Part shown: positions 661 to 57,229 of the stretch, one piece after another | Position numbering within the stretch: position 1 is the stretch's first letter | Layout: each line of letters begins with the position of its first letter | Assembly (NCBI GenBank): GCA_964016885.1 | Contig: OZ024740.1 | Span: 100,502,001-100,566,000 of the forward strand | DNA length: 64,000 nucleotides | DNA from: Eledone cirrhosa | Lineage: Eukaryota | Reading direction: 5' to 3' | Notes under the pieces: generated by a model | Told to the model about the DNA's origin: nothing | Databases searched by the model: none | The model's input: the letters and a program-made list of their open reading frames with translations, nothing else | Translations under genes and position numbers: made by a program

Positions 661-3600
661 TATTATTATTATTACAGTTGCATTTATCTTGCTTTATGTT
701 CATACGAGTTATCACCAAGTCACAACCAGTGACCTCAAGAGACAACAAGGTCCGCCATGTTCAAGAAAGAACATACATATTCACACATGCATCTTTAGTG
801 TTTAGACTTGTGATGTACTTATATTGACAGAATCTTCCTTAGTATATGGACAGTTCCCATTAGTACTATCTTTTGTATTTCTCCTATACGCGGGTTTCCT
901 GGGATTTGCGATAAGTAATCATTAGACCCCTTAGGTATCATTCCCAGAGCGCCTACAACCACTGGTATTGTTTTAGTTCTCAATTTCCACATTTTTCCAA
1001 TTTCTATCTCCAGGTCCTTATACTTGCTCAATTTTTCAAATGTTTTTATAGATACATTCTTGTCTATTGGAACAGACATATCAATTAGCAGGCATACCCT
1101 CTTTTTAAAGTCCTTCAATATTATATCAGGTCTATTTGCATCTATTTTTCGGTCTGTTTGGATGCTAAAGTTCCACAAGATTGAGATGTGATCTTTTTCA
1201 AGTATGGGAGGTGGTTGATGCTCCCACCAATTCTTTTGATGGGGCAGGTCAAAATGCTTACACATTATCCAATGTATGTATTGTGCAGCTCTGTCATGCC
1301 TGTTTAGGTATTCGGTTGGAGCTATAGGACTGCACATTGAAATTATATGGTCAATGGTCTCTGGTTGTTTTTTGCATACACGGCATAATGGGCTGCATCC
1401 ATTTTTTATTATGTTGGCTTGGTAATTTTTTGTTGGCAGACACTGATCTTGTGCTGATATAATCAGTCCTTCAGTCTCCGATTTCAGTCCAGAGGATGCC
1501 AACCACTGATGGGTTAAAGGTTTGTCAACATCAGGATTGTTAGCTCGCTCTGGGTATTTTCCATACAGAGGCTCTTCTTGCCATTTCTTAGCCAGTTTCT
1601 GTAGCAGTTCTTTCTTTGCAGTTACTTTTACCTGCTTTGCTTTTTCTGTGTTTTCCATTTCAGCAGTAAATGGGACTTCTGAAATTTGTAGTCCATTACT
1701 GTATCTTTGTGCATCTTTTGTAATGGAATATGATCTTTTGATGCTTTCGTGTTTCAAAACGAGTTTGATCATCCAATCATGTGATTCCCTTAGATATGTA
1801 GATAATCCAATTGTTGCAGTTTTCAACGCAATGTCTAACTGGATTAACCCACGTCCTCCTTCTTTCCTAGGGAGATATATTCTATCTATATCTGCCTTAG
1901 GGTGGTGCATTCTGTGCATGGTTAAGAATTTTCTCATTTTTGTATCGAGCCTACGGATCTCTGTGCTTGACCAGTTGATGACATTGTAACTGTAGGTTAC
2001 TACTGGTATGGCAAGCGTGTTTATGGCATCGATCCTATTCCTTGCATTCAATTCCGTTCTTAAGATTGCTCTTACTCTGCGGTAACATTCCTTCCTTATC
2101 CTTTCCCTCATTGTCGAGTGCTTGATTCCGTCTCCTTCACAAACACCTAGATATTTGTAAGTTTTTTCTTGATCAAGTTCTCTTATCACGTTCCCCCGAT
2201 CAATATTAATGTCTGAACTCTTCAGCAGCTTTCCTCTGGTGAACGTTGCTTTGGCGCATTTATCTAGTCCAAACTCCATTTTAATGTCACCACTGAACTG
2301 CTCCACAGTGGATAATAGCCCTTGCAATTGTTCATCATTTTTTGCAAATAGTTTCAGGTCATCCATGTAGAACAGGTGATTAATGGTTTTGTCATAGACT
2401 TTATATCCATGTTTTGTTTCATTGAGCATTTTACTTAATGGTATAAGTGCGATGCAGAATAAAAGCGGTGATACAGAGTCACCCTGAAAAATTCCACAAT
2501 TAATATTAACTTCTCCAGCTTCCAGTGATTTTGTTTCACTATTCAAAAGGAGTGTCGTTTTCCATGTCTTCATACTGAATGACAAAAACCTCCTGACAAC
2601 GGGGGATATTTTGAAAATCTCTAAACATGTTTCAATCCAACTTGATGGCAAACTATCGAATGCTTTTTTATAATCTATCCAAGCAATCGATAGATTTTTG
2701 TGTCTATTATGACAATCTTCCAGTATCATTTTGTTAACCAGAAGCTGATCCTTACAGCCATATGAGCCTCGTTTACACCCCTTCTGCTCAATGGGAAATA
2801 GGTCATTTGTTATCAGGTGGTCATATGTGTATTCAGTTAGGACTGATGTTAAAATTTTATACATTGTGGTCAAGCAAGTTATCGGTCTGTAATTTTTTGG
2901 ATTGTTTGTCTCATCATTCTTCGGAAGCAGGAATGTAATGCCGTTAACTAGCCATGATGGTATCTTTTCTGGCTCCTTAACTATTTCATTGTAAAGTTGG
3001 GCTAACAGCTCATGAGACTCTGTGAAGGCATTTATCCAAAAGTTTTGTATTTTGTCTTTTCCTGGGGATTTCCTTTTGCTGGTTTTTCTTAGAGCCAAGC
3101 GCAACTGTTCAACTGTTATATTTTCCCATATTTGTTCCTCAAGGTGAGCTGTATCTTTCATTTGTCTGTCTATCCATGGGGCATGTATGTTATGAACTTT
3201 TTCTTCGGCCCAGATCTTTTCCCAGAATTCTTGCACTTCCTCCTTGGGTGGTATTGATTTAGCAGTTATTGTTGACTTACCAATTTTTCTGTAGAAGTTT
3301 CTTTGGTTGTTTTTGAACATATTATTGTCCTTATAGAATCTAGATCGTTTTTCAAAGCGCCTTATATGAGCAGCTTTGGCCAACACTTTTTGCTTGATTA
3401 TTTCTATCAGCATGTCTATGTCACATGTTGATTTTATACTGTACTTTTTTTTCAATTTTCTAAGTTTAGTTTGTTTAACATGTTCACCTACTTTATTGTT
3501 TGTTAAAATTTCTATGTCAGATCGGAGAAGGTTTATTTGGCGATTGATGTTCTCTTGCCAAGTAGATTTCTTGTGGGAATTCCTTTGTTTTTTCATCTTC

Positions 3601-4060
3601 ACTCCACATAAGTGAGTGGTGACTTTAGCCGATGCATAATAGAGATGATTTAAATCAGTAATGTTTAGTTTGTTTGTGATGATAATGTTTTTGAGAATTA
3701 TGTTAGTCTTGTGTATTATCTTTTGGTTCTGTTTGGAGTTCTGGATCTTAGGGAGGGTGACTAGTTTCCCCATGTCAGATTCTTTCATTTTCATCCATTC
3801 GATCATAATTTCATCCTTCAAGTTGGCAAGTTCATTCTCATTCATTTCTTTATCATTTACGATCTCATTATTTTCATTTGGAGTTTCATCCTGAGCATGC
3901 AATCCCTCCACTTTTTCGTTCCTTTCTTTAATTTGTTCTGTTGCCAGTGATTCCGCCCCAACCCTGGGATTCGAAGTGTTACAATTTACCTCGTTTTCAC
4001 TGACACATGTTTCATTTTCCCTTCGCTGACTTTGTGCTAATAGCTTGATCTGATCAATGT
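661..4060 (-). mobile_element. R4/Dong-clade non-LTR retrotransposon (RLE type), 5'-truncated, inserted in (TAA)n
   Basis: Single RT-CCHC-RLE ORF, ~145-nt 3' UTR (673-818), (TAA)n at the 3' end (661-672) and at the 5' junction (4060-4078). Dong elements are known to target TAA repeats. Confidence 0.88.
819..4058 (-). CDS. R4/Dong-like polyprotein: reverse transcriptase, CCHC zinc motif and PD-(D/E)xK restriction-like endonuclease (N-terminally truncated)
   Basis: Motifs NYRPITCL, WIDYKKAFDS, GIFQGDSVSPLLF, HLFYMDD, CRVC..ETIDHIISMC, RHD and RPDIIL..LIDMSVP..KLSKY. The frame stays open from the listed GTG at 3911 up to the microsatellite junction (IDQIKLLAQ...). Confidence 0.92.
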   Translation of the reverse strand: MDQIKLLAQSQRRENETCVSENEVNCNTSNPRVGAESLATEQIKERNEKVEGLHAQDETPNENNEIVNDKEMNENELANLKDEIMIEWMKMKESDMGKLVTLPKIQNSKQNQKIIHKTNIILKNIIITNKLNITDLNHLYYASAKVTTHLCGVKMKKQRNSHKKSTWQENINRQINLLRSDIEILTNNKVGEHVKQTKLRKLKKKYSIKSTCDIDMLIEIIKQKVLAKAAHIRRFEKRSRFYKDNNMFKNNQRNFYRKIGKSTITAKSIPPKEEVQEFWEKIWAEEKVHNIHAPWIDRQMKDTAHLEEQIWENITVEQLRLALRKTSKRKSPGKDKIQNFWINAFTESHELLAQLYNEIVKEPEKIPSWLVNGITFLLPKNDETNNPKNYRPITCLTTMYKILTSVLTEYTYDHLITNDLFPIEQKGCKRGSYGCKDQLLVNKMILEDCHNRHKNLSIAWIDYKKAFDSLPSSWIETCLEIFKISPVVRRFLSFSMKTWKTTLLLNSETKSLEAGEVNINCGIFQGDSVSPLLFCIALIPLSKMLNETKHGYKVYDKTINHLFYMDDLKLFAKNDEQLQGLLSTVEQFSGDIKMEFGLDKCAKATFTRGKLLKSSDINIDRGNVIRELDQEKTYKYLGVCEGDGIKHSTMRERIRKECYRRVRAILRTELNARNRIDAINTLAIPVVTYSYNVINWSSTEIRRLDTKMRKFLTMHRMHHPKADIDRIYLPRKEGGRGLIQLDIALKTATIGLSTYLRESHDWMIKLVLKHESIKRSYSITKDAQRYSNGLQISEVPFTAEMENTEKAKQVKVTAKKELLQKLAKKWQEEPLYGKYPERANNPDVDKPLTHQWLASSGLKSETEGLIISAQDQCLPTKNYQANIIKNGCSPLCRVCKKQPETIDHIISMCSPIAPTEYLNRHDRAAQYIHWIMCKHFDLPHQKNWWEHQPPPILEKDHISILWNFSIQTDRKIDANRPDIILKDFKKRVCLLIDMSVPIDKNVSIKTFEKLSKYKDLEIEIGKMWKLRTKTIPVVVGALGMIPKGSNDYLSQIPGNPRIGEIQKIVLMGTVHILRKILSI

Positions 4061-4078
4061 ATTATTATTATTATTATT
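4060..4078. repeat. (ATT)n microsatellite separating head-to-head Dong(-) and Tx1(+) elements
   Basis: Seen directly: tattattattattattatt. Confidence 0.95.
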
Positions 4079-4287
4079 GGCGACCTACGTAGGAAATCGT
4101 ATTATCGTGAGCTCCGCAAAGGTTTGTTATTTCCGTTTGTTTAAAAATTGCCATTTATGGAAAATTTTATTGTTAACTGTTTATAAGCACACATACATTG
4201 TTTTCCGAAAAGGACACCTAAAAAGATTGGGGCCTTGTGCCCAAAATTTTAACTTTTATTATTATCAAAAAATTTCTTTGAAAAATA

Positions 4288-6269
4288 ATGGCTACTTCAC
4301 CTCTGCACAAAGCAGGTGAAAGCCTTCTTCACAAAATAACACCTCACACCGAGACCACCATTGTAAATGTTACTACGTTTTCCAACACAAAAAAAAATAT
4401 AAGCAGTAGCAATATTTTAAATTTGTCTCAGGCAGACATTCATTTCCCGCCATTACCAATGACTGCAGGTGTTAAAGCCTCCACCACAACCACCACCGCG
4501 ACAACCACCACCACCACCGCGACAACAGAAACAAAAGAAGAAAAAAATAAATTAACTCGTGATGTCGAAATGAAATCAAGCAAAATGGACTCTTCCCCAC
4601 CAAAGACGACTGACGTCACCACCACCACAACTGAAACTAAAATTAATATTAACGATAGCAACAACAACAACAATGACATTATAACCCCCCCCCCCCCTCA
4701 GTTTCGCCAGAGTAACAAAACAATTCGAAGCATTTACCGTAACTCAAGAAGATTTAGAAAATGCCAAACAAATGGTAAAGAAAGATGCGTACAGGGTCAG
4801 CCTCACCCCCCACCTAATAAAATGGAGTATCGGCGCCTATGCACCGTGTCGTATAGAACAATAAATGTAAAATCGCGCCGAGTGGAACGGGCATCCGAGT
4901 CCCAAATCCAAAAAGCTTTGGGGCATGTGTGGGCAAGAAAAACCCACATCAGACGTGGGCAAAAGTATGGAACCGTGGATGTGTTCTTTGAAACACCAGA
5001 GGAGGCTAGAGAACACTCCATGGCCCCATTAAAAAGTGACGACTTCACACTCGTCCCAAGCTATTGTGGCCAGAGACTCGTAAAGATCAGGGTGACCCAC
5101 GTTCCACCGGCCATCGAAATTCCCTGGCTAATAGCGGCTGTCCTCGCCGGCATCGAGGCCAACACGAAAATAATAACAATAGCAAAAGAAAAGCAGGAAA
5201 ACTGGTCCGGATCTGGGATGGAGCTCCTGATCCAAGCGGACCAAAAAAGCATTGAGGAGATCCCAGAGGTAATAGACCTCACTGACGGCAGCCACCTCAC
5301 GGTAATTGTCGAGGGCAGAAGACCTAGGTGTGTCGTTGTGGTGAAGGAACCCACCTAAGGGCTTTCTGCCCTCAGGCTAAAAGGTTGAGGCCACCTCTCC
5401 TACCCACCCCAGTGACACAACCATCAACACCACCAGTAGCAGAGATGGCAGCAACAACTGTAGCAGCAACAACAGAAGCAACTATAACAGCAACAACCCC
5501 AGCAACATTAGCAAAATCAACACCACTACCACCACCAGCAAAACCAACACCACCACCACCCAACGCTTCAGAACTAGCACCAGCGCCTACACCATCCACC
5601 ACACCACAACCAAAACTAACGGCTGTGGAGGATTTTCCACTCCCCGGCCTATCACAACTGGAGACAGATTGTGATGACGAGGAGTGGGAAACGATATCCG
5701 GTAAAAAAAAAAGAAACCAAAAAAGAAAAAATTCTCTTCCTTCCCCCTCCAAAAACAAAATACAGAGGGAAACAAATAAATTAAGAAACAAAAAAGTTAG
5801 GACAGATATGCCACCATCCACACCAGCATCACCAACCCCATCAACCCAAACACCAACACCATCACCATCATTAACCCCAGCACCACCATCACCTACACCA
5901 CAAAAGTCACCAAAATGCGAAACAGAAACAAACCCACAACAAACGCAAACAAAACAAAACAACCAAAACGATACACACTACACAGCATTAAATTTGAACA
6001 ACAAGCAATTCTTACACTACATCCAACACAACACCAGCATCACAGAAAAAGACTACACAACAACCCCAAAATTCACACCACCTCCACACATACAAATCAC
6101 TCGCATCACACAGAAAACGTACATGACACTAAAACAAAAATTCCCCAAAGACATCGGAGACTTCCGACAAGCACTCTCCAGGAGGATTTATAAGGACATC
6201 CTTTCTGAGGAGGCCACAAGCAGTGAAAAGGATGGAAAAACCGTCCTTCCCCTACGAGAAGTAAGGTAA
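4288..6269 (+). pseudogene. Tx1-like ORF1 (RRM-like core, CX2CX4HX4C knuckle, Pro/Thr-rich region), split by frameshifts
   Basis: Homologous to ORF1 at 15087-16935. Frame changes at poly-C 4685-4697, poly-C 4806-4811 and 5331; RC-CRCGEGTHLRAFC is restored by a -1 shift. Confidence 0.82.
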
Positions 6270-6303
6270 GTGGTCTTTCCCATCTTTTCCACTCCTTTTC
6301 AAC

Positions 6304-9300
6304 ATGATCTCACTCAGAATAGGCAGCATAAATGCGCGTGGCTTGGGGTCGCCATGGAAGCAGGGCCACCTGCTAAACGACCTCAGGTCACTAAACATAG
6401 ATGTATTGGTCATCAGCGAGACCAGAATCTCCGAAGCACAGGCTTTCGCACCGATCTTCGGCGGCTACGATGTGTACGCATCTCCCAGCCGTCCGAGATC
6501 GGGGGGAGGAGTTGCTGTGCTTTTTCGGAGAGGTTTGGATCTTGCCATACGGGCCATCTTCCTGGACCCAGAAGGTAAGTTGGTGGTGCTGGACGTGACC
6601 AGCGGAGACGGGCAAGCTTTCAGGTTAGTGGCCGTCTATGCCCCGACAGGAGCAGGGCGGCCTGATTTCTTCCGGCGTCTGGAGACCTTTCTTGGAACGT
6701 CCCGCTCTTTAGTGTTAGTGGGCGACTGGAACGGGATCTTAGATGCACGCTGGGATTGTGTGGGATTAGTGGATAGGGAAGGAGGGTGCAAGAGTCTCAC
6801 CAACCTGGTCAGACGTTGTGAACTGTTTGACAGGTACCGAATGGATTTCCCGAATGTACCAATGTGGACTTGGACAAATCGCATAGGGTCATCCAGATTA
6901 TATCTAGATAGAGTATTTTGTAGGGAAATAGATAGGTCTAGCATAGGCTGTCCACAATTCAAGATAGTCAGCTACACGGACCACAAATTCGTGATCTGTG
7001 TGCTTGACTTAGATAGGCTTCATAGACGAGGACCCGGCTACTGGAAGCTAAACGCGTCCTTACCAGCGCGCAAGGCCTACAGAGACCGGATTAGCGAACT
7101 AGTTAAGCGGGCGTTGACGGGGGCCATCGTCAACAACAAGTGGTGGTTTGCTCTGAAAAGAGCAATTAGAATAGAGTCCATTAGGTTTCGTAAGACTTTA
7201 GCAATAGAGAAAAATAGAGCAGAGGGAGAATTAGTTAGAAAATTAGATGAGGCGCTTAGCAAAGGCATCGCGACCGACGTACTTGCGGAGAAATTGGCCC
7301 TTGACCAATTCTTCAATGCAAAGCACGAAGGCTGCGTTGTCAGAGCTAGGGTGCGTGCTCTCAGACACGAGGGGACGAAAGCCGTTCAATGGGCCCGAGT
7401 GGCGGAGGCGCGTCGTGGCAACAAAGCCACGATCCGGTCTTTGGTGGACCACGACGGGCGCATGCTACTCGATCCCGGGAAAATGTGTGAAGCTTTTCAG
7501 CGACACTTCGCTCAACTGTTCGGGGGCAGTGGCGGGCCGGATCGAGGGATGGACTTTAGTGTCTACCTCGACGGACTGCCGCGGCTTTCGGCCACTGAGG
7601 CGGAGTGTTGCGAAAAGCCGATAACAACCGCTGAAGTACGGGATGCAATGACTAGTTGCACAAGGGGTAAATCGCCTGGTTTGGATGGTCTGCCCTATGA
7701 ACTTTACGTACAAATGCCAAACTTGTTCGGAGGCCTCTTCGCGTACGTCTACTGCAACTGGCAACAGAACGGGAGAATTCCCAGCTCTGTGAGCCGAGGA
7801 GCGGTGGCGCTGCTGAGAAAGGATCCGAACAAGGGGGATAACATAGATAATTTTAGGCCCATAACTCTGCTAAACACAGAGTTCAAGATTTTGGCCAAGG
7901 TGCTAGCAAAGAGGTTGGCGCTTGTCGTTGGTGGTCTGGTGGGAGAAGCACAGACATGCGCCATTCCCGACAGATCCATCCACGACAACCTCCACCTCAT
8001 GCGATACATCGTAGAGAGGGTAGCTAGGGAACCTGGCACGGGTGGGTCTTTGATCAATTTAGATCAGTCGAAAGCCTTCGATAGGGTCGACCATCGTTAC
8101 CTAACGGCAGTCCTGAGGGCGGCTGGCTTTGGGCCCGTCTTCAGAGGCTGGATCGCTGCCATGCACAGCGACATCTGCTCTGTAGTGAGAGTGAACGGTC
8201 ACCTTTCGGAACCGTTCAACATCGTGCGCTCGGTCCGCCAAGGATGTCCCCTCTCGTCCCTATTGTACGTATTGACTCTCGAGCCATTACTGCACAAACT
8301 GGAGACGTTGAGGGGGGTCCCGCGCGAACTAGGATGCGGAAGATCCGTGTCAGCATATGCCGACGATGTCACCGTAGTGGTGTCGAACGCCAAACACATC
8401 GAGGCGATCGGCACTACACTAAGAGAATACGAAGCAGTGACAGGAGCAATGATCAACCAGGAAAAGTCAGTGGGCCTGCAGCTCGGCACCTGGAGAGGCA
8501 GGTCCATGCCGTCCAACAGCGTCGTCGGGCGCTGGACAGACGGACCGGTTAAATTGCTAGGGGCCTGGTTCGGTCCAGACCTCCAGATGGACAAAAACTG
8601 GGACGAGGTGACGAGCAGGGTGGCTTCTCTCACCCAGAAATGGGCCGAGAGGAAGCTATCCCTGAAAGGTCGAGCGGAGGTGGCGAATGCGTACATCGCA
8701 TCCGTCATCTACTACCGCCTGACCGTCGTACCTTGTCCTAAGCCCCGCCTGACTGCGCTGGAGCGTTTGCTCTTTCGCTTCTTGTGGAAGGGACGCGCTC
8801 CAATGGTCAGGCGGTCCATCTGCTGTCAACACCCGCTACGTGGAGGGCTGGGCATGCCGTGGCTGATGATGCGCAGACACGCGCTCAGGCTACGACATCT
8901 CCACCTCTTCCTCGACGGTGATCAGGTGTGGTCGCCGTTTGCTAGACGCATTTTTCCCCAGCTCGTCTCCTTGACGGAGCTGCAGTCCTGGGTCAAGCGA
9001 AGACCGAGAGGGAGCGCTTGGAGACTGGAATGTCTTCAGGCGCTCACAGCCCTCGACCAATCGGGCAATGTGATCGGTGGAAACTCCCCCTTGGCGTTCT
9101 ATAGTGTATTAGTGGAGGGGAAGAGCGACGACGTACTTGGAGAAACTCTAGGCGTCGACGAAAATCAACTAGCCAATCTCTTCGGAAGGACTTTCGGGCC
9201 GGGGCCTATGGACAACTTCCAGAAATCCCTGGCCTGGCAGTGCTACCGAGGAGCTTTGCCAGTTCGGGATAAACTCTACAGGCATGGAGGTGCCGTCAGC

Positions 9301-9723
9301 CGGGCATGTCCGAGATGCGCGCAGGGCGACGAAACCGTCCTGCACGCACTCGTCCAGTGTCCGAGCATTGCTGACTTGTGGGTTTATGTCGAACACCTGC
9401 TGTCACGTGTAGGACGGATCCAGCTATCAGCTGAGTCCATCGTGAGGATTGCCCCGCCCCCTTCCTTTAGCCGGGAAGGGCAGGCAGTTTTTATCTGTCT
9501 GGTGGCCATGGCGAAAGAGATAGAATGGTGGACACGTTTGAAAGGGCTGAAGACGAGCACTTACCTCTTCGGTGATGCCCTGATTAACTTTTTCAAATTT
9601 CATTTGAAAAGGAAAATCAGGGTAGAGAGGGAAGTGCTCTCTTCCCAGCATTTTGTTGAAAGATGGGTGAGAGAAGCAAGTATGGCCCGAATGAATGGGC
9701 CTTCTCTGAGCATGTGTCTGTAA
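6304..9723 (+). CDS. Tx1/L1-like ORF2: APE endonuclease, reverse transcriptase and C-terminal zinc-binding domain, intact 1139 aa
   Basis: SINARGL, SET, VYAP, GDWN, YLDRV, YTDHK, GYWKLN, KSPGLDGL, NFRPITLLN, LDQSKAFDRV, VRQGCPLS, AYADD, CPRC..ETVLHALVQC. Confidence 0.96.
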   Translation: MISLRIGSINARGLGSPWKQGHLLNDLRSLNIDVLVISETRISEAQAFAPIFGGYDVYASPSRPRSGGGVAVLFRRGLDLAIRAIFLDPEGKLVVLDVTSGDGQAFRLVAVYAPTGAGRPDFFRRLETFLGTSRSLVLVGDWNGILDARWDCVGLVDREGGCKSLTNLVRRCELFDRYRMDFPNVPMWTWTNRIGSSRLYLDRVFCREIDRSSIGCPQFKIVSYTDHKFVICVLDLDRLHRRGPGYWKLNASLPARKAYRDRISELVKRALTGAIVNNKWWFALKRAIRIESIRFRKTLAIEKNRAEGELVRKLDEALSKGIATDVLAEKLALDQFFNAKHEGCVVRARVRALRHEGTKAVQWARVAEARRGNKATIRSLVDHDGRMLLDPGKMCEAFQRHFAQLFGGSGGPDRGMDFSVYLDGLPRLSATEAECCEKPITTAEVRDAMTSCTRGKSPGLDGLPYELYVQMPNLFGGLFAYVYCNWQQNGRIPSSVSRGAVALLRKDPNKGDNIDNFRPITLLNTEFKILAKVLAKRLALVVGGLVGEAQTCAIPDRSIHDNLHLMRYIVERVAREPGTGGSLINLDQSKAFDRVDHRYLTAVLRAAGFGPVFRGWIAAMHSDICSVVRVNGHLSEPFNIVRSVRQGCPLSSLLYVLTLEPLLHKLETLRGVPRELGCGRSVSAYADDVTVVVSNAKHIEAIGTTLREYEAVTGAMINQEKSVGLQLGTWRGRSMPSNSVVGRWTDGPVKLLGAWFGPDLQMDKNWDEVTSRVASLTQKWAERKLSLKGRAEVANAYIASVIYYRLTVVPCPKPRLTALERLLFRFLWKGRAPMVRRSICCQHPLRGGLGMPWLMMRRHALRLRHLHLFLDGDQVWSPFARRIFPQLVSLTELQSWVKRRPRGSAWRLECLQALTALDQSGNVIGGNSPLAFYSVLVEGKSDDVLGETLGVDENQLANLFGRTFGPGPMDNFQKSLAWQCYRGALPVRDKLYRHGGAVSRACPRCAQGDETVLHALVQCPSIADLWVYVEHLLSRVGRIQLSAESIVRIAPPPSFSREGQAVFICLVAMAKEIEWWTRLKGLKTSTYLFGDALINFFKFHLKRKIRVEREVLSSQHFVERWVREASMARMNGPSLSMCL

Positions 9724-9968
9724 ATTAAAGGTGGAAAACTGGGAGAGGGCACTTGCCCTGGTGGTCAGGGCCACTGTGGTCTTTTAATGGGCTTTCTCCA
9801 CAAATGTCCCTCGGAAGTCTCCCCCCTATTGGGGAATTTTTCTTTGTTATTTTATTTCAAACTCTGTTTTTTTTTGCACGCAGAAATGCCCATTTGTACC
9901 GTCGTGTATTGTCCTGTACTGTCCTTAATGTCTACTTTATGTAAACCCTTGTGGTTAATAAAGAAAAC

Positions 9969-9969
<1 letters not shown>

Positions 9970-10011
<42 letters not shown>
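9970..10011. repeat. (ATT)n tail/target between Tx1 and RTE
   Basis: Seen directly. Confidence 0.95.
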
Positions 10012-10012
<1 letters not shown>

Positions 10013-12791: not shown

Positions 12792-12809
12792 GATTATTAT
12801 CATTATCAC

Positions 12810-13212
12810 TATTAAAGAACTTTTCATTTAAAAAGAAAATCAGGGTGGAGAGTGAAGTGCTCCCTTCCCAACAATTTGTTGAAAGATGGGTAAGAGAGGT
12901 GAGAATGGCCTGAGTCAATGGGCCTGCTCTGAGTATGCATTTGTAGATTGGAGGTGGAAAACTGGAAGAGGGCACTTGCCCTGGTGGTCAGGGTCATCAA
13001 GGCTTTTTGTGGGCTTTCTCCATGAGTGACCCTCGGAGGTCTCCCCCCCCCGCCGTATTGGGGAATTTTCTTTTGTTTCATTTTTTTTTTACTTCCTTTA
13101 TTATTGTTTTTTTTCTTTACATGCAGACATGCCCATTTGTATCGTCCTGTACCATCCTGTGCTGTCCTTAATGTTATACTTTATCTCAACCCCTGTGTTT
13201 AATAAAGAAAGC
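12810..13212 (+). mobile_element. 3' fragment of Tx1-like LINE (end of ORF2 plus 3' UTR)
   Basis: Similar to 9590-9969; ends AATAAAGAAAGC(ATT)n and is preceded by a degenerate ATT/ATC repeat. Confidence 0.88.
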
Positions 13213-13685
13213 ATTATTATTACTAAGGCAGTGGTGGTGCTGGTATCGGTTATTGTGCTGGTGGTGGTATTTTTCAAAATTATAACTTTTTTCAAATGCT
13301 TCTGTGGTTGTGTTAGTGGTGGTGGAATTGCTGGCGGAGGTAGCAAGAGTATCTGGGTAGAGGAGAGGCGACGTTCAAAGGGATTTTTTTTATGTTCTTG
13401 GCTACTCGTTTTTGTTTTTGCTCTTTTTTTTACTGGTTCAAGGTCAGCAGCATCAGTCTATAAATAGGTTGAGGTCTTCTCTTCCTTTGAAGTCACTAGG
13501 ATTGCTATTATTGTTGCTGTTATTATTATCAAAGAAATCATTATTATACTTTATTATTATTATTGCTGTAGATGTTATCTGTCATGGCATTAGTGGGATT
13601 AGTGGTGGTAGTGGTGGTGATAATGGTAGTGACATTGCCATTATTTTTGGCTGTTCTGTGAACATGGGTGGGTATGTTATTATTT

Positions 13686-13872
13686 GGATTGGCAGTATCA
13701 ATAGAGTGTTAGACACCATGCTTTACAGCATAGAGTTACAGTCCTTTACGGTCTGAGTTCAAATCCGCTGAGGTTAACTTTGCCTTTTATCCTTATGAGG
13801 TCGATAAAATAAAGTACCAGTAATGCACTGGCCTTGTGCCAAAAGTAGAAAGAATTATTATTATTATTATTA
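13686..13872 (+). mobile_element. tRNA-type SINE (ATT-tailed family)
   Basis: A-box-like TGGCAGTATC, B-box GAGTTCAAATCC, central TTTGCCTTTYATCCTTA..GGTCGATAAAATAAAGTACCAG block (resembles the Meta-SINE domain, from memory), ends GGCCTTGTGCCAAAAGTAGAAAGA(ATT)n. Confidence 0.85.
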
Positions 13873-13876
13873 TAGT

Positions 13877-14064
13877 GTGGTGGATTGGCAGTATCGGTAG
13901 AGCGTTGGACATCATGCTTTGCAGCATAGAGTTATGGCCCTTGACGTTCTGAGTTCAAATCCAGCCGAGGTTAGCTTTGCCTTTCATCCATACGGAGTCG
14001 ATAAAATAAAGCACCAGTAATGCACTGGGGTAATTGGTGGCCTTGTACCAAAAGTAGAAACAAT
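13877..14064 (+). mobile_element. tRNA-type SINE (ATT-tailed family), tandem second copy
   Basis: Same family; starts just after the ATT tail of the previous copy. Confidence 0.85.
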
Positions 14065-14094: not shown

Positions 14095-14182
14095 TATTTT
14101 ACATAAAGAAAAACCTACACTGTATCGTCCTGTAGTGTCTTTAATGTTTCCTTAATGTGAGCCCTGTGTGGCTAATAAAGAC
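14095..14182 (+). mobile_element. Very short 3'-terminal fragment of a Tx1-like LINE
   Basis: TGTATCGTCCTGTAGTGTCTTTAATG...CCCTGTGTGGCTAATAAAGAC(ATT)n matches the Tx1 3' terminus. Confidence 0.7.
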
Positions 14183-14194
14183 ATTATTATTATT

Positions 14195-15037
14195 AGTGGA
14201 GGGGAAGAGCGACGACGTACTTGGGGAAACTCTAGGCGTCGAACTTTCGGGCTGGGGCCTATGGACAACTTCCAGAAATCCCTGGCATGGCAGTGCTAGA
14301 GAGGAGCTTTGCCAGTTCGGGATAAACTCTACAGGCATGGAGGTGCCGTCAGCCGGGCATGTCTGAGATGCATGCAGGGCGACGAAACCGTCCTGCACGC
14401 ACTCGTCCAGTGTCCGAGCATTGCTGATTTGTGGGTTTATGTCGAACATCTGCTGTCGCGTGTAGGACGGATCCAGCTATCAGCTGAGTCTATCGTGAGG
14501 ATTGCCCCACCCTCTTCCTTTAGCCGGGAAGCGCAGGCAGTTTTTATCTGTCTGGTGGCCATGGCGAAAGAGATAGTATGGTGGACACGTTTGAAAGGGC
14601 TGAAGATGAGCACTTACCTCTTCGGTGATGCCCTGATTAACTTTTTCAAATTTCATTTGAAAAGGAAAATCAGGGTAGAGAGGGAAGTGCTCTCTTCCCA
14701 GCATTTTGTTGAAAGATGGGTGAGAGAGGCAAGAATGGCCCGAGTGAAAGGGCCTACTCTGAGTATGTGTCTGTAAATTAAAGGTGGAAAACTGGGAGAG
14801 GGCACTTGCCCTGGTGGTCAAGGTCACTGTGGCTTTTTACTGGGCTTTCTCCACGAATGTCCCTCGGAAGTCTCCCCCCTATTGGGGAATTTTTTCATTG
14901 TTCTATTATTACATCCTCTGTTTCTTATTTTTTTTACATGCAGAAATGCCTTTTTGTACCGTTCTGTAATGTCCTGTATTGTCCTGTACTGTCCTTAATG
15001 TCTACTTTATGTAAACCCTTGTGGTTAATAAAGAAAG

Positions 15038-15038
<1 letters not shown>
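14195..15038 (+). mobile_element. 5'-truncated Tx1 subfamily A copy (zinc-binding C-terminus plus 3' UTR)
   Basis: Near-identical to 9110-9969 with a small internal deletion; (ATT)n on both sides (14183-14194 and 15039-15086). Confidence 0.93.
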
Positions 15039-15086
<48 letters not shown>

Positions 15087-15088
<2 letters not shown>

Positions 15089-18000
15089 AACACCATCAAT
15101 AACAACAGCGACAACAAAAATAACAGTAGTAAAGTCGAGAACGACAATAACAAAAATAACAGCAGTAGGGTCGAGAACGACAATAACAATGACAATAACA
15201 ACAGCCACAACAACAATAATAGTAGGAACAGTATCAACAAAAACAAAAATAATAACAACAGCCACAATAACAGTAACAACAGCAACAGTATCAACGAAAA
15301 CAACCACAACAACACCAACAACTGTACCAACGAAAACAACAACAATGACACCGATACCTGTAACAGCGACCTCAGCACCAGTAGCGGCAGCAATAGTGGT
15401 GCTGCTGAAAAAGGGACCACTTCTTTTGCAGGTGTCGCCCGAAATATCGAAACAGTGTTAGTCACAGAGGAGGAGATGGCAGTCGCAAGGGCCATGGTGA
15501 CAAGAAACGCCAATAGAGTCTCCCTGAAACCTCCACCCGATTTTTTCAAGGGCCAGCAGCTACGGACGGTGACTTACCGCAAATTCTCACATCGGGTGGA
15601 GAGAGCCACGGAGGCTCAAATCCAGAAGGCCTTGGGGTGCGTCTGGGCACGCAAAACCCACATCACCCGAGGCAGAAAGTACGCCACAGTTGACGTACTT
15701 TTCGCCACCCCCCAGGGAGCAAAGTCTCACTCTTTGGAAACCCTAAAGAGTGAGGAGATAGTCTTGGTGCCCTCCTACTGCGGGCAGAAAATTGTGAGGG
15801 CCAAAGTGACCCAGGTCCCATCCGACGTGCCCATACATTGGCTGGCCACGTCTGTCTTTGCTGGAATCAAGAACAGGATGACCATGCTGCAAGTAGAAAA
15901 AATAGGGAGAGAGAACTGGTCAGGTATAGGCATGCAAATGCTTATACAAACTGACCAGGAATGTATCGACGCTATCCCCGATATCATTGACATCGAGGAA
16001 GGACTCCAACTCCCTATAGTGTAGAAGGAAGACAGCCAAAATGTTATCTCTGTGGGTCGAAGTATCACCTCAGGGCCTTTTGCCCGCAGAAGACAACGAA
16101 GACAGCCCCTCTCCTCCCAATACCTGGTCCGCTGCTACCAAGAGCAGGGCAGGCAACAAACAAAGTAGCCCCTTCCACGGTGAGTAGGAGGGCAACGTCC
16201 GTAGCACCCGTACCAATGCCACGGACAACTAAAGCAGCAGTATCAGTGGCGGCAACACCATTAGCTACATTTGAAGTAGCTACACCAGCAACAAAATTGC
16301 AGAAGAGGGCTCCACTACCACCACCAACAGCCGTGGAGCACACCCCCCTCCCAGACGCCACAGAATCCGACATGGAGTTTGAGGCGGGAGTGAAGTGGCA
16401 AACGGTCTGCTACAAAAATACAAAAAAGAAAAACACCCTTAGATTCATCCTCCAAAAGCGAAGGCATACAAAGAAGGGTAAAGGCAGCAAGGAAACTTGC
16501 AGCAACACCACCACCATTACCACTGACAACAACAACCACACCACCATCAGCATCACCAAAAACACCAACAACGCAAACACAAGATACACACGCCAAACAG
16601 CATCAAGAAGAAAACAGCAACAAAATCACCCCTCCCCCAAAAAGTACACAACCATAAACATGGCAAAAAAAGAACTCATACAATATATAAAGCAGCACAC
16701 AGACATCACAGAAGAAAACTACTACACCCCACCAACACCAAGAACTCTCCCGACAAACAAGCATCATCGAAATCTCAATAGAACAGCACAAACCTTTAAA
16801 ACAAAAATTCCCCAACGCAGTTGGAGACTTCAGAGGGTCCGTTACCAAGAGGATATACACTGACATCCTCTTGGAAACACTCATGACCAGCGAAAGGGAC
16901 GGTTCTACTGTCCCTTCACCACACGATCAAGGTAAGTGGCCCTTTCTCACTTGCCCCGTTTCTCATCCAACATGGCCGTACTCAGAATAGGCAGTACAAA
17001 AGCACGTGGCCTGGGGTCATCTTGGAAGCAGGGTCACCTGCTCAACGTCCTCAGGTCACTAAACATAGATTGGGTGGCCATCAGTGAAACCAGAGTGTCC
17101 GAAGCACAAGCCTTCGCACCGATCTTCGGCGGCTACGATATATACGCATCTCCCAGCCGTCCAGGATCGGGGGGAGGGGTTGCCGTCCTTTTCAGAGAGG
17201 CTTGGATCTCGCGATACGGGCCATCTTCATAGAACAAGAAGGTAAGTCGGTGGTGCTGGACGTGACCGGCAGCGAAGGCAATGCTTTCAGGCTAGTAGCC
17301 GTCTACGCCCCAACAGGGGCAGGACGACCAGATTTCTTCAGACGTCTAGAGACCTTTCTTGGAACGTCCCGCTCTTTAGTGTTAGTGGGCGACTGGAACG
17401 GTATCTTGGATGCACGCTGGGATCGTGTGTGGCTAGTGGATAGGGGAGGAGGGTGCAAGAGCCTCACCAACCTGCTCAGACGTTTTGAACTGTCTGACAG
17501 GTATCGACTGGACCACCCGAATGTGCCAATGTGGACATGGACAAACCGCATCGGGTCATCCAGATTGTATCTCGATAGGGTATTGTGCAGAGAACTAGAT
17601 AAAGCTAGTATAAGTTGTCCACAATTTAAAATAGTCGACTACACAGACCACAAATTTGTGATCTGTGAGATCGACATAGACAGACTTCATAGATAAGGGC
17701 CTGGTTACTGGAAGCTGAACGCGTCTTGCCCGGCGCGCAAAGCCTACGGAGACCGGATTAGCGTATTAGTTAAGCGGGCGTTGAAGGGAGCGGTCGTCAA
17801 CGACAGGTGGTGGTTCGCCCTGAAAAGGGCAGTTAAAGTAGAGTCGATTAGGTTTAGCAAAGGAGTAGTGATAAAGGAAAATAGAGTAGAGGGAGAGCTT
17901 GTCAGAAAGCTAGAAGATGCGTTTAGGACAGGCATCGCAACCGACGTGCTTGCGGCGAGATTGACACTCGACCAATTCTTCAACGCAAAACACGAAGGCT

Positions 18001-20632
18001 GCGTTGTCAGAGCTAGAGCGCGTGCTCTGAAACACGAGGGGACAAAAGCCGTCCAACGGGCCCGGGTGGCAGAGTCGCGACGTGGCAACAAAGCCACAAT
18101 TCGGTCTTTGTCTGACCAAAACGGGTGCGTGATGTGCGAACCCGAGCGGATGTGTGAAGCTTTTCAGCAGCACTTTGCTGAACTGTTCGGGAGCGGCGGC
18201 GGCCCGGATCGGAGCATGGACTTCAGTGCATACCTCGACGGACTGCCTCGGCTCTCGACGATCGCAGCACAGTGTTGCGAAAAGCCAATAACAGCCGGTG
18301 AAATACGGGCAGCGATGGCCAGCTGCACAAGGGGTAAATCGCCAGGTTTGGATGGTCTTCCCTACGAGCTTTATGCATTTATGCCAGACATGTTCGGTGA
18401 CCACTTGGCAGACGTCTACTGCAACTGGCAGCAGAACGGGAGCATTCCCAGTTTCGTGAGCCGTGGAGCAGTGGCGCTGCTGAGAAATGACCCGAACAAG
18501 TGTGATGTTATCGATAATTTCAGGCCCATAACCCTGCTAAACGCAGAGTTCAAGATTTTGGGCAAGGTGTTAGCAACGAGGTTTGCGCTTGTCGTCAAGG
18601 GTCTGGTGGGAGGGGCGCAGAGATGCGCCATTCCAGACAGATCCATACACGACAACCTCCACCTCATGCGATACATCATAGAGAGGGTGGTTAAGGAACC
18701 TGGCACGGGTGGGGCCCTGATCAACTTGGACAAATCCAAAGCATTCGATAGGGTCAACCAACGGTACTTGGCGGCGTTCCTCGAGGCAGCCGGTTTCGGG
18801 CCCGTTTTCAGGGGTTGGATCGCATCAATGTACAGCGATATCTGCTCAGTTGTAAGGGTGAACGGTCACCTGTCGCAGCCGTTCAGCATCATGCGCTCAG
18901 TCCGCCAGGGTTGTCCCCTCTCGTCCCTCTTATACGTATTGGCTCTCGAGCCGTTACTGCACAAAATGGGGCCGATGAGGGGCGTCATACGCGAACTAGG
19001 ATGCGGGAAATACGAGTCGGCTTACGCTGACGACGTCACCGTGGTGGTGTCGAGCACCAGACACGTCCAGATGCTCGGCACCGCTCTCAAGGAAAACGAA
19101 GAGGTGACAGGATCAAAGATAAACCAGGAAAAGTTGGTGGGCTTGCAGCTCGGCACCTGGAGAGGCAAGTCCATGCCGTCCGACAGCGTCGTGGGGCGTT
19201 GGACGGACGGACCGGTTAAATTGCTCGGGGTCTGGTTTGGACCGGACCTCCAGATGGAGAAAAACTGGAACGAGGTGACGAGCAGGGTGGCCTCCCTCCC
19301 CCAGAAATGGGCCGAGAGGAAGCTGTCCCTGAAAGGCCGGGCGGTGGTGGCGAATGCGTACATCGCATCCGTCATCTGCTGTCGCCTCACCGTCGTCCCT
19401 TGCTCCAGCCCAACTCTCACCAAAATGGAGTGCCTCCTCTTCTGCTTTTTGTGGAAAGGACGCGCTCCCATGATCAGACGATCCATCTGCTGTCAACACC
19501 CATTGCGTGAAGGACTGGGCATGCCATGGCTGATGATGCGCAAACATGCGCTGAGGCTGTGACATCTCTGGTGCTTCCTTGATGGTGAACAGGTGTGGTC
19601 GCCGTTCGCCAGGCACGTTTTCCCACAGCTCGTTTCCTTGACGGAGCTGTAGTCCTGGGTCAGAAAAAGACAAGTATCAGTGGAACATCCATCTTGGCAT
19701 TCTATAGAGGACTAGTGGAGGGGAAGAGCGACGACATTCTCGGAGAGATCCTGGGCGTCGAAGAAGATCAGCTGTTTTCTCTCTTCCGGAGAACTTTCAG
19801 CCCGGGGCCTATGAATAACTTCCAAATATCCCTGGCCTGGCAGTGCTACCGGGGAGAGCTGCCAGTTTGAGATAAGCTCTACAGGCACGGAAGTGCCGTC
19901 AGCCGAGCCTGCGCGAGATGCGCGCAGAGCGACGAAACCGTCGTGCACGCACTCGTTCAGTGCCCGAGCATTGCTGACTTGTGGAGCTATGTCGAACAGT
20001 TGCTGTCGCGTGTAGGACTGATCCGGTTGTCGATGAGTCCATTGTGCAGATGGTCTTGCCGCCTTCCTTTGAGGAGGAAGGGCAGGCGGTTTCCATCTGC
20101 CTGGTGGCCATGGCAAAAGAGATTGTGTGGTGGACAAGGTTAAAAGTGGTAAAGACACACACTTTCTTCTTCGGCGAATCCCTAATTAACTTTTTCAAGT
20201 TTCACTTGAAGAGGAAAATCAGGGTGGAGAGGCAAGTGCTGCTTTCTAGCAAGTTTGTTGAAAGGTGGGTGAATGTAGCGAGAATGGTCCGAGTGAACGG
20301 GACCACTCTGAATATACGTCTGTAGTTTGAGAGATGGAAAAATTGAGAGAGGGCGCTTGCCCTGGTGGTCAGGGTGGCCGTGGTCTTTTGTGTGGTTTTC
20401 GCCACGAGTAACCCTCGGAGGTTTCCCCCCTATTGGGGAACTTTTCATTGTTTCAATTTTCATTTTTATTGTTTATATATATATATATGTTTCTATGTCC
20501 TTTTTTTTTCTTTTTTTATATAAATAATAAAAATATTTACACGCACAAAACCCACATCGTACCGTCCTGTACCGTCCAGTGCCGTCTGTAATGTTTTACT
20601 TGATGTCAGCCCTTGTGGCCAATAAAGAAATC
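15087..20632 (+). mobile_element. Tx1-like LINE subfamily B, near full length, decayed (ORF1 ~15087-16935, ORF2 16972-20325)
   Basis: ORF1 with CYLCGSKYHLRAFC knuckle. ORF2 is colinear with 6304-9723 but has frameshifts/stops (~17200, 17694, 19560, deletion ~19670). Ends AATAAAGAAATC followed by (ATT)n to ~20660. Confidence 0.92.
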
Positions 20633-57190: not shown

Positions 57191-57198
57191 ATTATAAC

Positions 57199-57229
<31 letters not shown>

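What the first reader, a model, noticed from the sequence alone, without database searches (positions are those of the whole stretch)
4079..9969. Tx1-clade LINE with apparent (ATT)n target specificity and an intact ORF2
Seen: five of six Tx1 pieces have ATT-type repeats on BOTH sides, including 5'-truncated copies (14183, 15039, 56242). That points to target choice rather than just a templated tail. ORF2 is uninterrupted and visibly GC/CpG-rich relative to the host, suggesting recent activity. I do not recall an ATT-specific Tx1 family, but cannot search Repbase/Dfam.
Basis: partly seen in the sequence, partly recalled or inferred. Interest (0 to 1): 0.75.

Follow-up and report, generated by a model that had tools for sequence, protein, structure and literature searches.

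The report
LINE that homes to ATT repeats
This is a young, very abundant jumping gene of the LINE-1/Tx1 type that always sits in one orientation inside ATT repeats, most likely because the cut AAT strand of the repeat pairs with the end of its RNA to start copying; it is a new example of a known habit, not a new kind of element.

Summary
Window 4079-10012 is a full-length LINE. Its ORF2 is uninterrupted (1139 aa: APE, RT, zf-RVT) and is flanked by (ATT)6 on the 5' side and an (ATT)n tail on the 3' side. Five other pieces lie in the window.

Across the genome, 30 of 30 sampled full-length 5' ends are preceded directly by 6-25 perfect ATT units. Such runs cover about 0.2% of random sequence. Of 21 5'-truncated copies, 12-13 also start at an ATT run. 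One copy has a 17-bp target-site duplication that begins ATTATTATT. So this is target choice, not only a templated tail.

A very abundant ~190-bp SINE shares the LINE's 3' end, and its duplications begin with ATTATT. Two families of restriction-like-endonuclease LINEs use the same repeat on the opposite strand ((AAT)n, as Dong does). A sister LINE family with the same 3' UTR end is (TATC)n-specific.

Copies are 97-98% alike. ORF2 is intact in 6 of 21 copies and is GC/CpG-rich. The window copy's ORF1 is frameshifted.

Placement in the Tx1 clade against named references could not be tested, and Repbase/Dfam could not be searched. Verdict: real, and a new member of a known kind (microsatellite-specific L1/Tx1-type LINEs). 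Interest is moderate.

The parts
4061..4078 (+). 5' flanking (ATT)6, the target repeat. On the minus strand it is also the (AAT)6 next to the apparent 5' end of the neighbouring RLE-type LINE.
4079..4287 (+). 5' UTR. It starts GGCGACCTACGTAGG, the same first bases as in 30 of 30 sampled copies.
4288..6269 (+). ORF1 region, broken in this copy into ORFs 4288-5358 and 5445-6269. Five of 20 other full-length copies (L062, L066, L072, L076, L078) have one 494-500-aa ORF1; L066's was read and carries a CCHC knuckle (CVVCGEGTHLRAFC). Here the frame breaks near 5335, at the knuckle.
   Evidence: table 4 (most word depth carries one more T behind 5335)
6304..9723 (+). ORF2, 1139 aa, uninterrupted. APE domain about 6364-6933, RT about 7834-8481 (YADD present), zf-RVT about 9223-9381.
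9724..9968 (+). 3' UTR with AATAAA at 9957-9962. Its last ~25 nt (CCCTTGTGGTTAATAAAGAAAAC) are shared with related LINE subfamilies and resemble the SINE's 3' end.
9969..10012 (+). (ATT)n tail, which cannot be told apart from the remainder of the target repeat.
12822..13225 (+). 5'-truncated older copy (80% identical) with an imperfect ATT-type run on the 5' side and (ATT)3 on the 3' side.
14121..14197 (+). Short 3'-end fragment (83% identical) ending in (ATT)4. Its 5' limit is uncertain and may reach to about 14064.
14197..15087 (+). 5'-truncated copy (90% identical) inserted in the ATT tail of the previous fragment. The 5' junction has TATTA microhomology; the tail is (ATT)16.
15088..20660 (+). 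Second, diverged subfamily copy (75-80% identical, ORF2 frameshifted) lying between (ATT)16 and (ATT)8.
56263..57227 (+). 5'-truncated copy (89% identical) with an ATT-type run on the 5' side and (ATT)9 on the 3' side, followed by two SINE copies.
676..4059 (-). Restriction-like-endonuclease LINE (ORF 819-3845, 1008 aa). Its sense strand is flanked by (AAT)n on both sides. It lies head to head with the Tx1-type element across the shared repeat.
13685..14063 (+). Two tandem copies of the ~190-bp SINE (13685-13854 and 13876-14063). Each ends ...GTAGAAA(C/G)A followed by ATT repeats.
57233..57618 (+). Two more tandem SINE copies, inserted in the LINE's ATT tail and then in each other's tail.

Best explanation
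This is a young, high-copy LINE of the L1/Tx1 type that lies in one fixed orientation inside (ATT)n repeats. It most likely gets there by target-primed reverse transcription, in which its APE nuclease nicks the AAT strand and the freed ...AATAAT-3' end pairs with AUU repeats at the 3' end of the element's RNA.

Shown directly:
- The element's anatomy.
- The ATT repeat on both sides, in one orientation.
- Target-site duplications that begin with ATTATT.
- The youth and abundance of the family.
- The same behaviour in a SINE that shares the LINE's 3' end.

Inferred:
- The nick lies just 5' of ATTATT on the top strand (C|ATTATT), so the duplication starts with the repeat and merges with the 'tail'.
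- The AATAAA 7 nt before the repeat (its last A at 9962, the repeat from 9969) would place RNA 3'-end formation inside the repeat, so each transcript carries a few AUU units.
- 5' ends are joined either precisely (always ...ATT|GGCGACC) or at a truncation point, in some cases with ATT-like microhomology.
- Most long ATT repeats used by the youngest family were laid down earlier, as tails or flanks of other elements: its own relatives, the SINE, and (AAT)n-specific RLE LINEs on the other strand. The elements would thus build and re-use a common landing pad.

Whether the nuclease, the RNA-primer pairing, or both set the specificity cannot be told from sequence alone. I take both to contribute.
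For: Anatomy:
- Pfam finds APE, RT and zf-RVT.
- The best solved relative is human L1 ORF2p, E 6e-52 over residues 6-855.
- Catalytic positions are conserved in a 30-sequence alignment.

Targeting:
- 30 of 30 loci found with the 5' 300 bp have 6-25 perfect ATT units (median 14) directly before GGCGACC. One locus is the window's own copy, and L014 and L015 share flanks. What lies upstream of the repeat differs among them: 4 LINE tails, 2 SINE tails, 24 other.
- Background: (ATT)>=3 covers 0.2% of bases in a random 400 kb.
- 12 of 21 5'-truncated copies start at an ATT run or an ATT-led duplication, plus 1 ambiguous.
- L126 has the duplication ATTATTATTGCAAGAAC, from a target with only three units.
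- 14 of 15 (ATT)>=6 runs in the window plus the random 400 kb touch an end of one of these element families.

SINE:
- 52 hits in the random 400 kb.
- Of 38 copies with a complete 3' end, 18 have a duplication of 10 nt or more. Permuted flanks give a mean of 2.5, with a maximum of 6 in 200 permutations.
- 16 of those 18 have ATTA within the first 7 nt.
- The SINE's 3' ~30 nt align with the 3' ends of three LINE subfamilies, with CCTTGTG..AA..GAAA invariant.

Youth:
- 97-98% identity among copies.
- ORF2 is 1139 aa in 5 of 20 other full-length copies.
- ORF2 CpG o/e is 0.90.
- Word depth rises from about 200,000 at the 5' end to 0.7-1.1 million at the 3' end in run X1, as 5' truncation would give.

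Sister family: it has the same 3' UTR end but (TATC)n tails, and (TATC)-type repeats at 18 of 25 informative 5' junctions.
Against: - 8 of 21 5'-truncated copies have no ATT at the 5' junction; one of them has (TTC)n. Target deletion at truncated insertions could explain this, but that is an assumption.
- For copies inside long repeats no duplication can be read, so 'tail' and 'target' cannot be separated there.
- The constant ...ATT|GGCGACC phase could also mean that the transcript starts within the repeat.
- No RNA run was available, so the RNA 3' end is unobserved.
- The sampled copies are the search tool's best-scoring matches, not a random draw. The unbiased 400 kb held only three young copies.
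- The SINE mostly used targets of two units, whereas the young LINE copies lie in long repeats. I do not explain this difference.
- No biochemical data exist for this nuclease.
Confidence: 0.75

Rival explanations
1. The specificity lies wholly in the APE nuclease, as is usually assumed for target-specific Tx1- and R1-clade elements. On this view the ATT 'tail' is just the downstream half of the cut repeat, and pairing with the RNA plays no part.
For: - Kojima 2015 (PMC4494074, passages read) states that target choice is mainly set by the encoded endonuclease.
- The APE domain is the most diverged part between the ATT family and the TATC family: 56% identity against 73% in RT.
- The 5' junction phase is constant in 30 of 30 copies, as a sequence-specific second-strand cut would give.
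Against: - APE domains generally evolve faster than RT, so 56% against 73% is not diagnostic.
- The element's unique sequence always ends just before a full ATT unit.
- The poly(A) signal sits where cleavage would fall inside the repeat, which fits a role for AUU at the RNA end.
- In L1, primer-template pairing is known to matter (PMC3649969; I saw only the search listing and the start of the abstract).
Confidence: 0.2
2. The specificity is carried by the RNA tail alone. The nuclease is relaxed. Transcripts read a few units into whatever repeat follows the donor copy, and those units choose the next site by pairing. A family's target would then be inherited through its flank and could switch without any protein change.
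For: - The ATT family and the TATC family share the same last UTR bases (..GTGGCTAATAAAGAAA) and differ only in the repeat that follows.
- AATAAA lies 7 nt before the repeat.
- The SINE needs only ATTATT.
Against: - Families breed true. No ATT-family body with a TATC tail, or the reverse, appeared in what I sampled.
- With a relaxed nuclease, more insertions at non-repeat sites with untemplated junctions would be expected.
- Not testable from sequence.
Confidence: 0.15
3. There is no targeting at all. ATT on both sides would come from a templated tail plus later microsatellite growth, tandem duplication or gene conversion, or from random insertion followed by survival only in harmless repeats.
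For: - Arrays of elements separated by ATT exist (window 14121-20660).
- L014 and L015 are a local duplicate.
- Microsatellites do expand.
Against: - Duplications made of ATTATT plus unique sequence in the SINE and in L126 show that the repeat was present in the empty site.
- 30 of 30 young copies (97-98% identical) with 24 differing upstream contexts leave little time for selection or expansion.
- Orientation is strictly one-way.
Confidence: 0.04

Closest known systems
Kibi, Koshi and crocodilian Tx1 families (Tx1 clade; microsatellite-specific)
   Same: These are APE-type LINEs of the L1/Tx1 group, found with the same microsatellite on both sides in one orientation. Closely related families use different repeats. 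Passages of PMC4494074 and PMC3812793 were read.
   Different: Their targets are pyrimidine-rich: (TC)n, (TTC)n, (TTCC)n and (TTTC)n. Here the targets are (ATT)n and, in a sister family, (TATC)n. Relatedness to them was not tested, because no named sequences were available. They are described from vertebrates; the host here is unnamed and AT-rich.
Dong (R4 clade, restriction-like endonuclease), specific for (TAA)n
   Same: It uses the same microsatellite (PMC3812793). The RLE LINEs next to and around this element behave like Dong, with (AAT)n on both sides.
   Different: Dong has a different enzyme (RLE, single ORF) and takes the opposite strand sense. The element under study reads (ATT)n on its sense strand and has an APE nuclease. 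I did not test whether the local RLE LINEs belong to the R4/Dong clade.
TRAS and SART of Bombyx mori (telomeric-repeat LINEs)
   Same: Two LINE families share one simple repeat in opposite orientations. SART1Bm needs a minimum of three repeat units and a defined start site for reverse transcription (abstract of PMC7265360).
   Different: Both are R1-clade APE elements and target telomeres. That TRAS takes the opposite orientation is my recollection; I read it in no call. Here the two partners are an APE LINE and RLE LINEs, at interstitial repeats.
Mammalian L1 (TTTT/AA nick, poly(A) pairing, A-rich start of the duplication) and its Alu/SINE passengers
   Same: It is the best solved relative of ORF2. 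Duplications are 10-20 bp, and their first bases merge with the tail. 5' truncation is frequent. A SINE uses the same sites.
   Different: The tail and target are ATT repeats rather than A/T tracts. ORF1 carries a CCHC knuckle, and in other copies perhaps RRMs, instead of the coiled-coil Transposase_22 type. The SINE shares the LINE's 3' end.
RandI/Dualen LINEs and SINEX SINEs of Chlamydomonas with (ATT)n 3' repeats
   Same: A LINE and SINE pair that both end in (ATT)n (Tables 2 and 3 of PMC3747384, passages read).
   Different: They belong to a different clade and kingdom. The passages I read list the tail, not target specificity.

Membership tests
L1 group (L1/Tx1) non-LTR retrotransposon | ORF2 with an N-terminal APE nuclease, a central RT, and a C-terminal Cys/His zinc domain | tested here: met
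   Pfam finds Exo_endo_phos (E 6.5e-13), RVT_1 (E 2e-28) and zf-RVT (E 9.4e-8). Human L1 ORF2p is the best PDB match at E 6e-52 over residues 6-855; R2 proteins match the RT only, at 1e-20.
Tx1 clade | RT-domain phylogeny places the element with Tx1, Keno, Kibi and Koshi rather than with L1 proper | not testable with these tools
   No named Tx1 or L1 reference sequences could be obtained. Two protein-database searches, a cluster look-up and the Atlas returned no clade-informative names; the few named rows were hypothetical or generic RT proteins. Repbase and Dfam are not available.
Tx1 clade | ORF1 of the RRM plus CCHC kind, which Ivancevic et al. 2016 (PMC5203782, passages read) describe as consistent with Tx1 in non-mammalian animals | tested here: inconclusive
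   A CCHC knuckle is present in L066's 500-aa ORF1, one of five such 494-500-aa ORFs among 20 copies. Pfam finds no RRM or zf-CCHC. A single-sequence AlphaFold model (pLDDT 57.7) has two beta-alpha-beta-beta-alpha-beta units, and its top Foldseek hits are all tandem-RRM proteins, but only at E 3.5e-3 to 3e-2.
Target-specific LINE by Kojima's 2015 working criterion | [quoted passage not shown] | tested here: met
   30 of 30 5' flanks are (ATT)6-25. 12-13 of 21 truncated copies also qualify. Background is 0.2%.
Stringent LINE-SINE partnership | The SINE's 3' end is derived from the LINE's 3' end, with the same tail and the same target-site signature | tested here: met
   The last ~30 nt align across three LINE subfamilies and three SINE copies, with an invariant CCTTGTG..AA..GAAA block. 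Both end in ATT units. SINE duplications start with ATTATT. The shared block is short, so partnership is inferred, not shown.
Dong/R4-type (TAA)n-specific LINE (the neighbouring minus-strand element) | A single ORF with RT followed by a CCHC motif and a restriction-like endonuclease, with (TAA)n on both sides | tested here: inconclusive
   A 1008-aa ORF with RVT_1. It matches R2 proteins from the RT through the C-terminal nuclease region, residues 241-954. 6 of 6 copies in unbiased sequence have (AAT)n tails, and all 4 informative 5' junctions have (AAT)n. Clade placement against named Dong/R4 sequences was not possible.

The most novel reading that the evidence does not exclude
One LINE lineage in this genome has switched its landing site between different microsatellites: (ATT)n in at least three subfamilies, (TATC)n in a sister family, and perhaps (TAG)n in another. 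All keep the same last bases of the 3' UTR. The identity of the target may therefore be carried by the few repeat units that each transcript reads from its own flank, not by the nuclease. That would make targeting heritable and switchable through the RNA tail. The ATT/AAT repeat is also shared, strand against strand, with unrelated restriction-like-endonuclease LINEs and with a very abundant SINE. Together these elements would create almost all long ATT repeats in the genome and then re-use them.
Probability: 0.25. Interest if true: 0.65.

Novelty: new member of a known kind. Interest (0 to 1): 0.42.

Why it matters
Microsatellite-specific APE LINEs are few, and how they pick their repeat is unsettled. 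This genome holds, side by side, young and abundant sister families with intact ORF2s. They differ in target, (ATT)n against (TATC)n, but share their 3' UTR end. A SINE passenger and unrelated RLE LINEs use the same repeat on the other strand. That is a natural swap experiment for asking whether the nuclease or the RNA-primer pairing sets target choice, a question that bears on designing site-directed LINE-based insertion tools. It also shows that nearly all long ATT repeats in the sampled sequence are made or occupied by these elements, which matters for repeat annotation and for using such microsatellites as markers.

Tried and rejected
- Named references for an RT/APE phylogeny. Two searches of the 5.8-billion-protein collection (single sequence, 30-sequence profile), a cluster look-up and the protein Atlas gave relatives without clade-informative names. 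'tRNA-like' rests only on a B-box-like GAGTTCAAATCC, a consensus I recall, and is not claimed.\n- Expression: no RNA holder was listed.\n- Empty sites and polymorphism: contigs of four runs laid on 3600-10500 were too fragmented to bridge the insertion.\n- The unbiased 400 kb held only three young copies, too few for truncation statistics. A 70-bp 3'-end query returned only 23 candidates, because common words are skipped. The 2767 against 213 'candidates' for the 5' and 3' queries are not copy numbers and were not used.\n- Pfam on the two ORF1-region ORFs of the window gave nothing. A weak MBD hit on L066 ORF1 (16.8 bits, cut-off 21) was disregarded.\n- I first took the recurrent 3' flanks X and Y for unknown repeats. 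They proved to be reverse-complemented 3' ends of RLE LINEs.\n- I first took flank Z for a third such LINE. It is the 5' end of another ATT-family subfamily.\n- I first took L098:2883 for the 5' end of the TATC family. It is an internal truncation point, and the true 5' end lies about 715 bp further upstream.
Full report
WHAT IS THERE

Window 4079-10012 (+) is one full-length non-LTR retrotransposon. Its parts are:
- a 209-bp 5' UTR starting GGCGACCTACG;
- an ORF1 region at 4288-6269;
- ORF2 at 6304-9723;
- a 245-bp 3' UTR with AATAAA at 9957-9962;
- a tail reading ATTATTATTAGT(ATT)10AT, which ends at 10012.

ORF2 is a single 1139-aa frame. Pfam finds Exo_endo_phos (residues 21-210), RVT_1 (511-726) and zf-RVT (974-1026). 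Its best solved relative is human L1 ORF2p (8sxt, E 6e-52, residues 6-855). R2 proteins match only the RT, at about 1e-20. Positions that are invariant or nearly so in an alignment with 29 database relatives include the APE and RT catalytic residues, YADD among them.

The 18 bases before the element are (ATT)6.

Self-BLAST finds five further pieces. Four have ATT-type repeats on both sides. The 77-bp piece at 14121 has (ATT)4 on its 3' side and an ambiguous 5' limit next to a degenerate SINE tail.

IS IT MORE THAN CHANCE, AND MORE THAN A TAIL?

I searched the window's own genome (3.0 Gb) with the first 300 bp. This gave 40 scored matches at 97-98% identity. In all 30 loci returned, 6-25 perfect ATT units (median 14) stand directly before GGCGACC, always in the phase ...ATT|GGCGACC. 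One of the 30 is the window's own copy, and L014 and L015 are a local duplicate.

What lies upstream of the repeat differs among the loci: four are tails of related LINEs, two are SINE tails and 24 are other sequence.

In 400 kb taken at round coordinates on ten chromosomes, (ATT)>=3 covers 0.2% of bases, both strands together.

The repeat is not simply the element's own 5' end. I could define 21 5'-truncated copies: 3 in the window and 18 in loci.
- 12 start at an ATT run or carry an ATT-led duplication.
- 1 is ambiguous.
- 8 have no ATT; one of these has (TTC)n.
- Several junctions show ATT-like microhomology with the element at the truncation point. Examples are TATTA at window 14197 and ATT at position 9650 in two independent copies.

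Copy L126 is the clearest case. It is a 74-bp 3' fragment flanked by the 17-bp duplication ATTATTATTGCAAGAAC. The target there had three units, and the 'tail' is the start of the duplication.

THE PASSENGER

A ~190-bp SINE (reference copy at window 13876-14063) ends ...CCTTGTGCC(A/T)AAAGTAGAAACA followed by ATT units.
- It gives 52 BLAST hits in the random 400 kb and 11 in the window. This implies a copy number in the hundred-thousands, which is a rough extrapolation.
- It often stands in head-to-tail pairs or runs.
- Of 38 copies with a complete 3' end in this unbiased sequence, 18 have a duplication of 10 nt or more. Permuted flanks give a mean of 2.5, with a maximum of 6 in 200 permutations.
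- 16 of those 18 have ATTA within their first 7 nt, typically ATTATT followed by unique sequence. ATTATT occurs at 0.08% of positions.
- Its last ~30 nt align with the 3' ends of three LINE subfamilies, with an invariant CCTTGTG..AA..GAAA block.

I infer that the SINE is moved by this LINE lineage. I also infer that the minimal site is about C|ATTATT on the top strand.

THE NEIGHBOURS

Many LINE tails are followed by the same sequences: of the 26 valid 3' flanks, 12 are type X and 1 is type Y. X and Y are the reverse-complemented 3' ends of two families of restriction-like-endonuclease LINEs.
- Y' is the minus-strand element at window 676-4059. Its ORF at 819-3845 matches R2 proteins from the RT through the nuclease region, E 1.7e-25.
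- The sense strands of these families end in (AAT)n in 6 of 6 copies in the unbiased sequence.
- The three 5'-truncated X' copies and the full Y' copy also have (AAT)n on the 5' side.

This is the behaviour described for Dong, which targets (TAA)n (PMC3812793, passage read).

So an APE LINE with its SINE, and RLE LINEs, use the same repeat on opposite strands. In the window, the element under study and the RLE LINE lie head to head across (ATT)6. Of the 15 (ATT)>=6 runs in the window plus the random 400 kb, 14 touch an end of one of these families.

A SISTER FAMILY WITH ANOTHER TARGET

More diverged relatives in the same genome end in the same 3' UTR bases (CCCTTGTGGCTAATAAAGAAA) but are followed by (TATC)n. 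Their ORF2 is 65% identical over 751 aa: APE 56%, RT 73%.
- 5 of 6 (TATC)>=4 runs in the unbiased sequence follow that 3' end; these are four distinct tails.
- 18 of 25 informative copies found with a 5' probe have (TATC)-type repeats at the 5' junction.
- These copies are 97-99% alike.

A further relative in L091 appears to end in (TAG)n. I did not follow this up. Another ATT-family subfamily has a different 5' module (flank 'Z', L106 3929-9999) and an ORF2 that aligns in one piece over all 1139 residues.

AGE AND STATE

- Twenty full-length copies are 97-98% identical to the window copy. I took these as 20 of the 40 matches, leaving out the local duplicate pair.
- 5 of those 20 have the 1139-aa ORF2.
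- In five of them (L062, L066, L072, L076, L078) ORF1 is one frame of 494-500 aa; L066's, the one I read, has a CCHC knuckle. In the window the frame breaks at the knuckle.
- Contigs of public runs show that most copies carry one more T behind 5335 (table 4). This copy is therefore probably not autonomous, although its ORF2 is whole.
- ORF2 has GC 54% and CpG o/e 0.90, against 36% and 0.59 in random sequence.
- The last kilobase shares many exact 31-mers with runs labelled as 16 different (coded) organisms from 15 studies, with shares from 0.75 to 0.14. I did not interpret this further.

MECHANISM

What is shown: orientation-specific presence in ATT repeats, duplications that begin with ATTATT, 5' truncation, and a SINE with the same signature.

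What is inferred, by analogy with L1 and other APE LINEs:
- A bottom-strand nick leaves ...AATAAT-3'.
- That end pairs with AUU units at the RNA 3' end.
- The AATAAA 7 nt upstream of the repeat would place RNA 3'-end formation inside it.
- The second cut falls 10-20 bp downstream.
- The 5' end is joined precisely, or at microhomology.

Whether the nuclease or the pairing sets the specificity cannot be decided here. The shared UTR end with different repeats in sister families keeps a tail-guided model open. The more diverged APE domain and the families breeding true keep a nuclease-guided model open.

COMPARISON AND NOVELTY

The kind is known: microsatellite-specific LINEs of the L1/Tx1 group.
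- Kibi uses (TC)n, Koshi uses (TTC)n, and crocodilian Tx1 families use (TTCC)n or (TTTC)n (PMC4494074, passages read).
- (TAA)n is a known target of Dong, in another clade.
- (ATT)n tails are listed for RandI/Dualen and SINEX in Chlamydomonas (PMC3747384, tables read).

Seven full-text searches found no paper describing an ATT- or TATC-specific Tx1-type family. The library does not hold Repbase Reports, and I could not query Repbase or Dfam. The supplementary figures of PMC4494074, which list Tx1 targets, were not seen.

Clade membership was not tested against named sequences. What I can say is that the element belongs to the L1 group. Its ORF1 is consistent with the RRM+CCHC type that PMC5203782 associates with Tx1 in non-mammalian animals, but the RRM evidence is weak: a single-sequence model with pLDDT 57.7, and tandem-RRM Foldseek hits at E of 3.5e-3 or weaker.

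VERDICT

This is a real, well-supported, target-specific LINE and a new member of a known kind. Its added interest comes from three things: the co-resident (TATC)n sister family, the SINE partner, and the strand-against-strand sharing of the repeat with RLE LINEs.

Noticed in passing
window 676-4059 (-); loci L033, L089, L111: Two families of restriction-like-endonuclease LINEs have sense strands ending in (AAT)n and flanked by (AAT)n on the 5' side as well, which is Dong-like behaviour. They lie tail to tail or head to head with the ATT-specific LINE across the shared repeat.
   Followed up: partly
window 13685-14063, 52819-53201, 57233-57618 and others; 52 hits in L081-L120: A very abundant ~190-bp SINE ends in ATT units, often stands in tandem, and has target-site duplications starting ATTATT. 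Neither ARAGORN nor Rfam recognises its head.
   Followed up: partly
L098 1-9998; L106 1-690; L144-L173: A sister LINE family (ORF2 65% identical) has the same 3' UTR end but (TATC)n tails and (TATC)n on the 5' side. Three copies stand in a row in L098.
   Followed up: partly
L091 about 5250-5760 (-); L056 3' flank: A more distant relative seems to end in (TAG)n/(AGT)n. One ATT-family copy is followed by (AGT)n.
   Followed up: no
window 10013-12795 (+) and window 1-341: Another LINE, 5'-truncated, starts exactly after the ATT tail. It has RVT_1 plus a PHD-finger Pfam hit after the RT (27.7 bits, cut-off 24) and a (TGA)n/(GAT)n tail.
   Followed up: partly
L106 3929-9999; 3' flanks of L041 and L044: One ATT-family subfamily has a different 5' UTR/ORF1 module (starting GAATGCCATGGTTGACGG) joined to a 96%-identical ORF2. 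This means the 5' modules have been exchanged among subfamilies.
   Followed up: partly
(runs X1-X20): Exact 31-mers of the element's last kilobase occur in public runs labelled as 16 different coded organisms from 15 studies. In run X4 the ORF2 part is at very high depth, while this subfamily's 5' part is rare.
   Followed up: partly
L035 3' end: One copy has an A-rich insert (AAAACAAAAAAAAAACAAAAAAAAAC) between the 3' UTR end and the ATT tail. It may be a trace of a polyadenylated template.
   Followed up: no
L014 and L015 (contig C2, 9.6 kb apart): Two full-length copies have identical 5' flanks, so this is a local duplication that includes the element.
   Followed up: no
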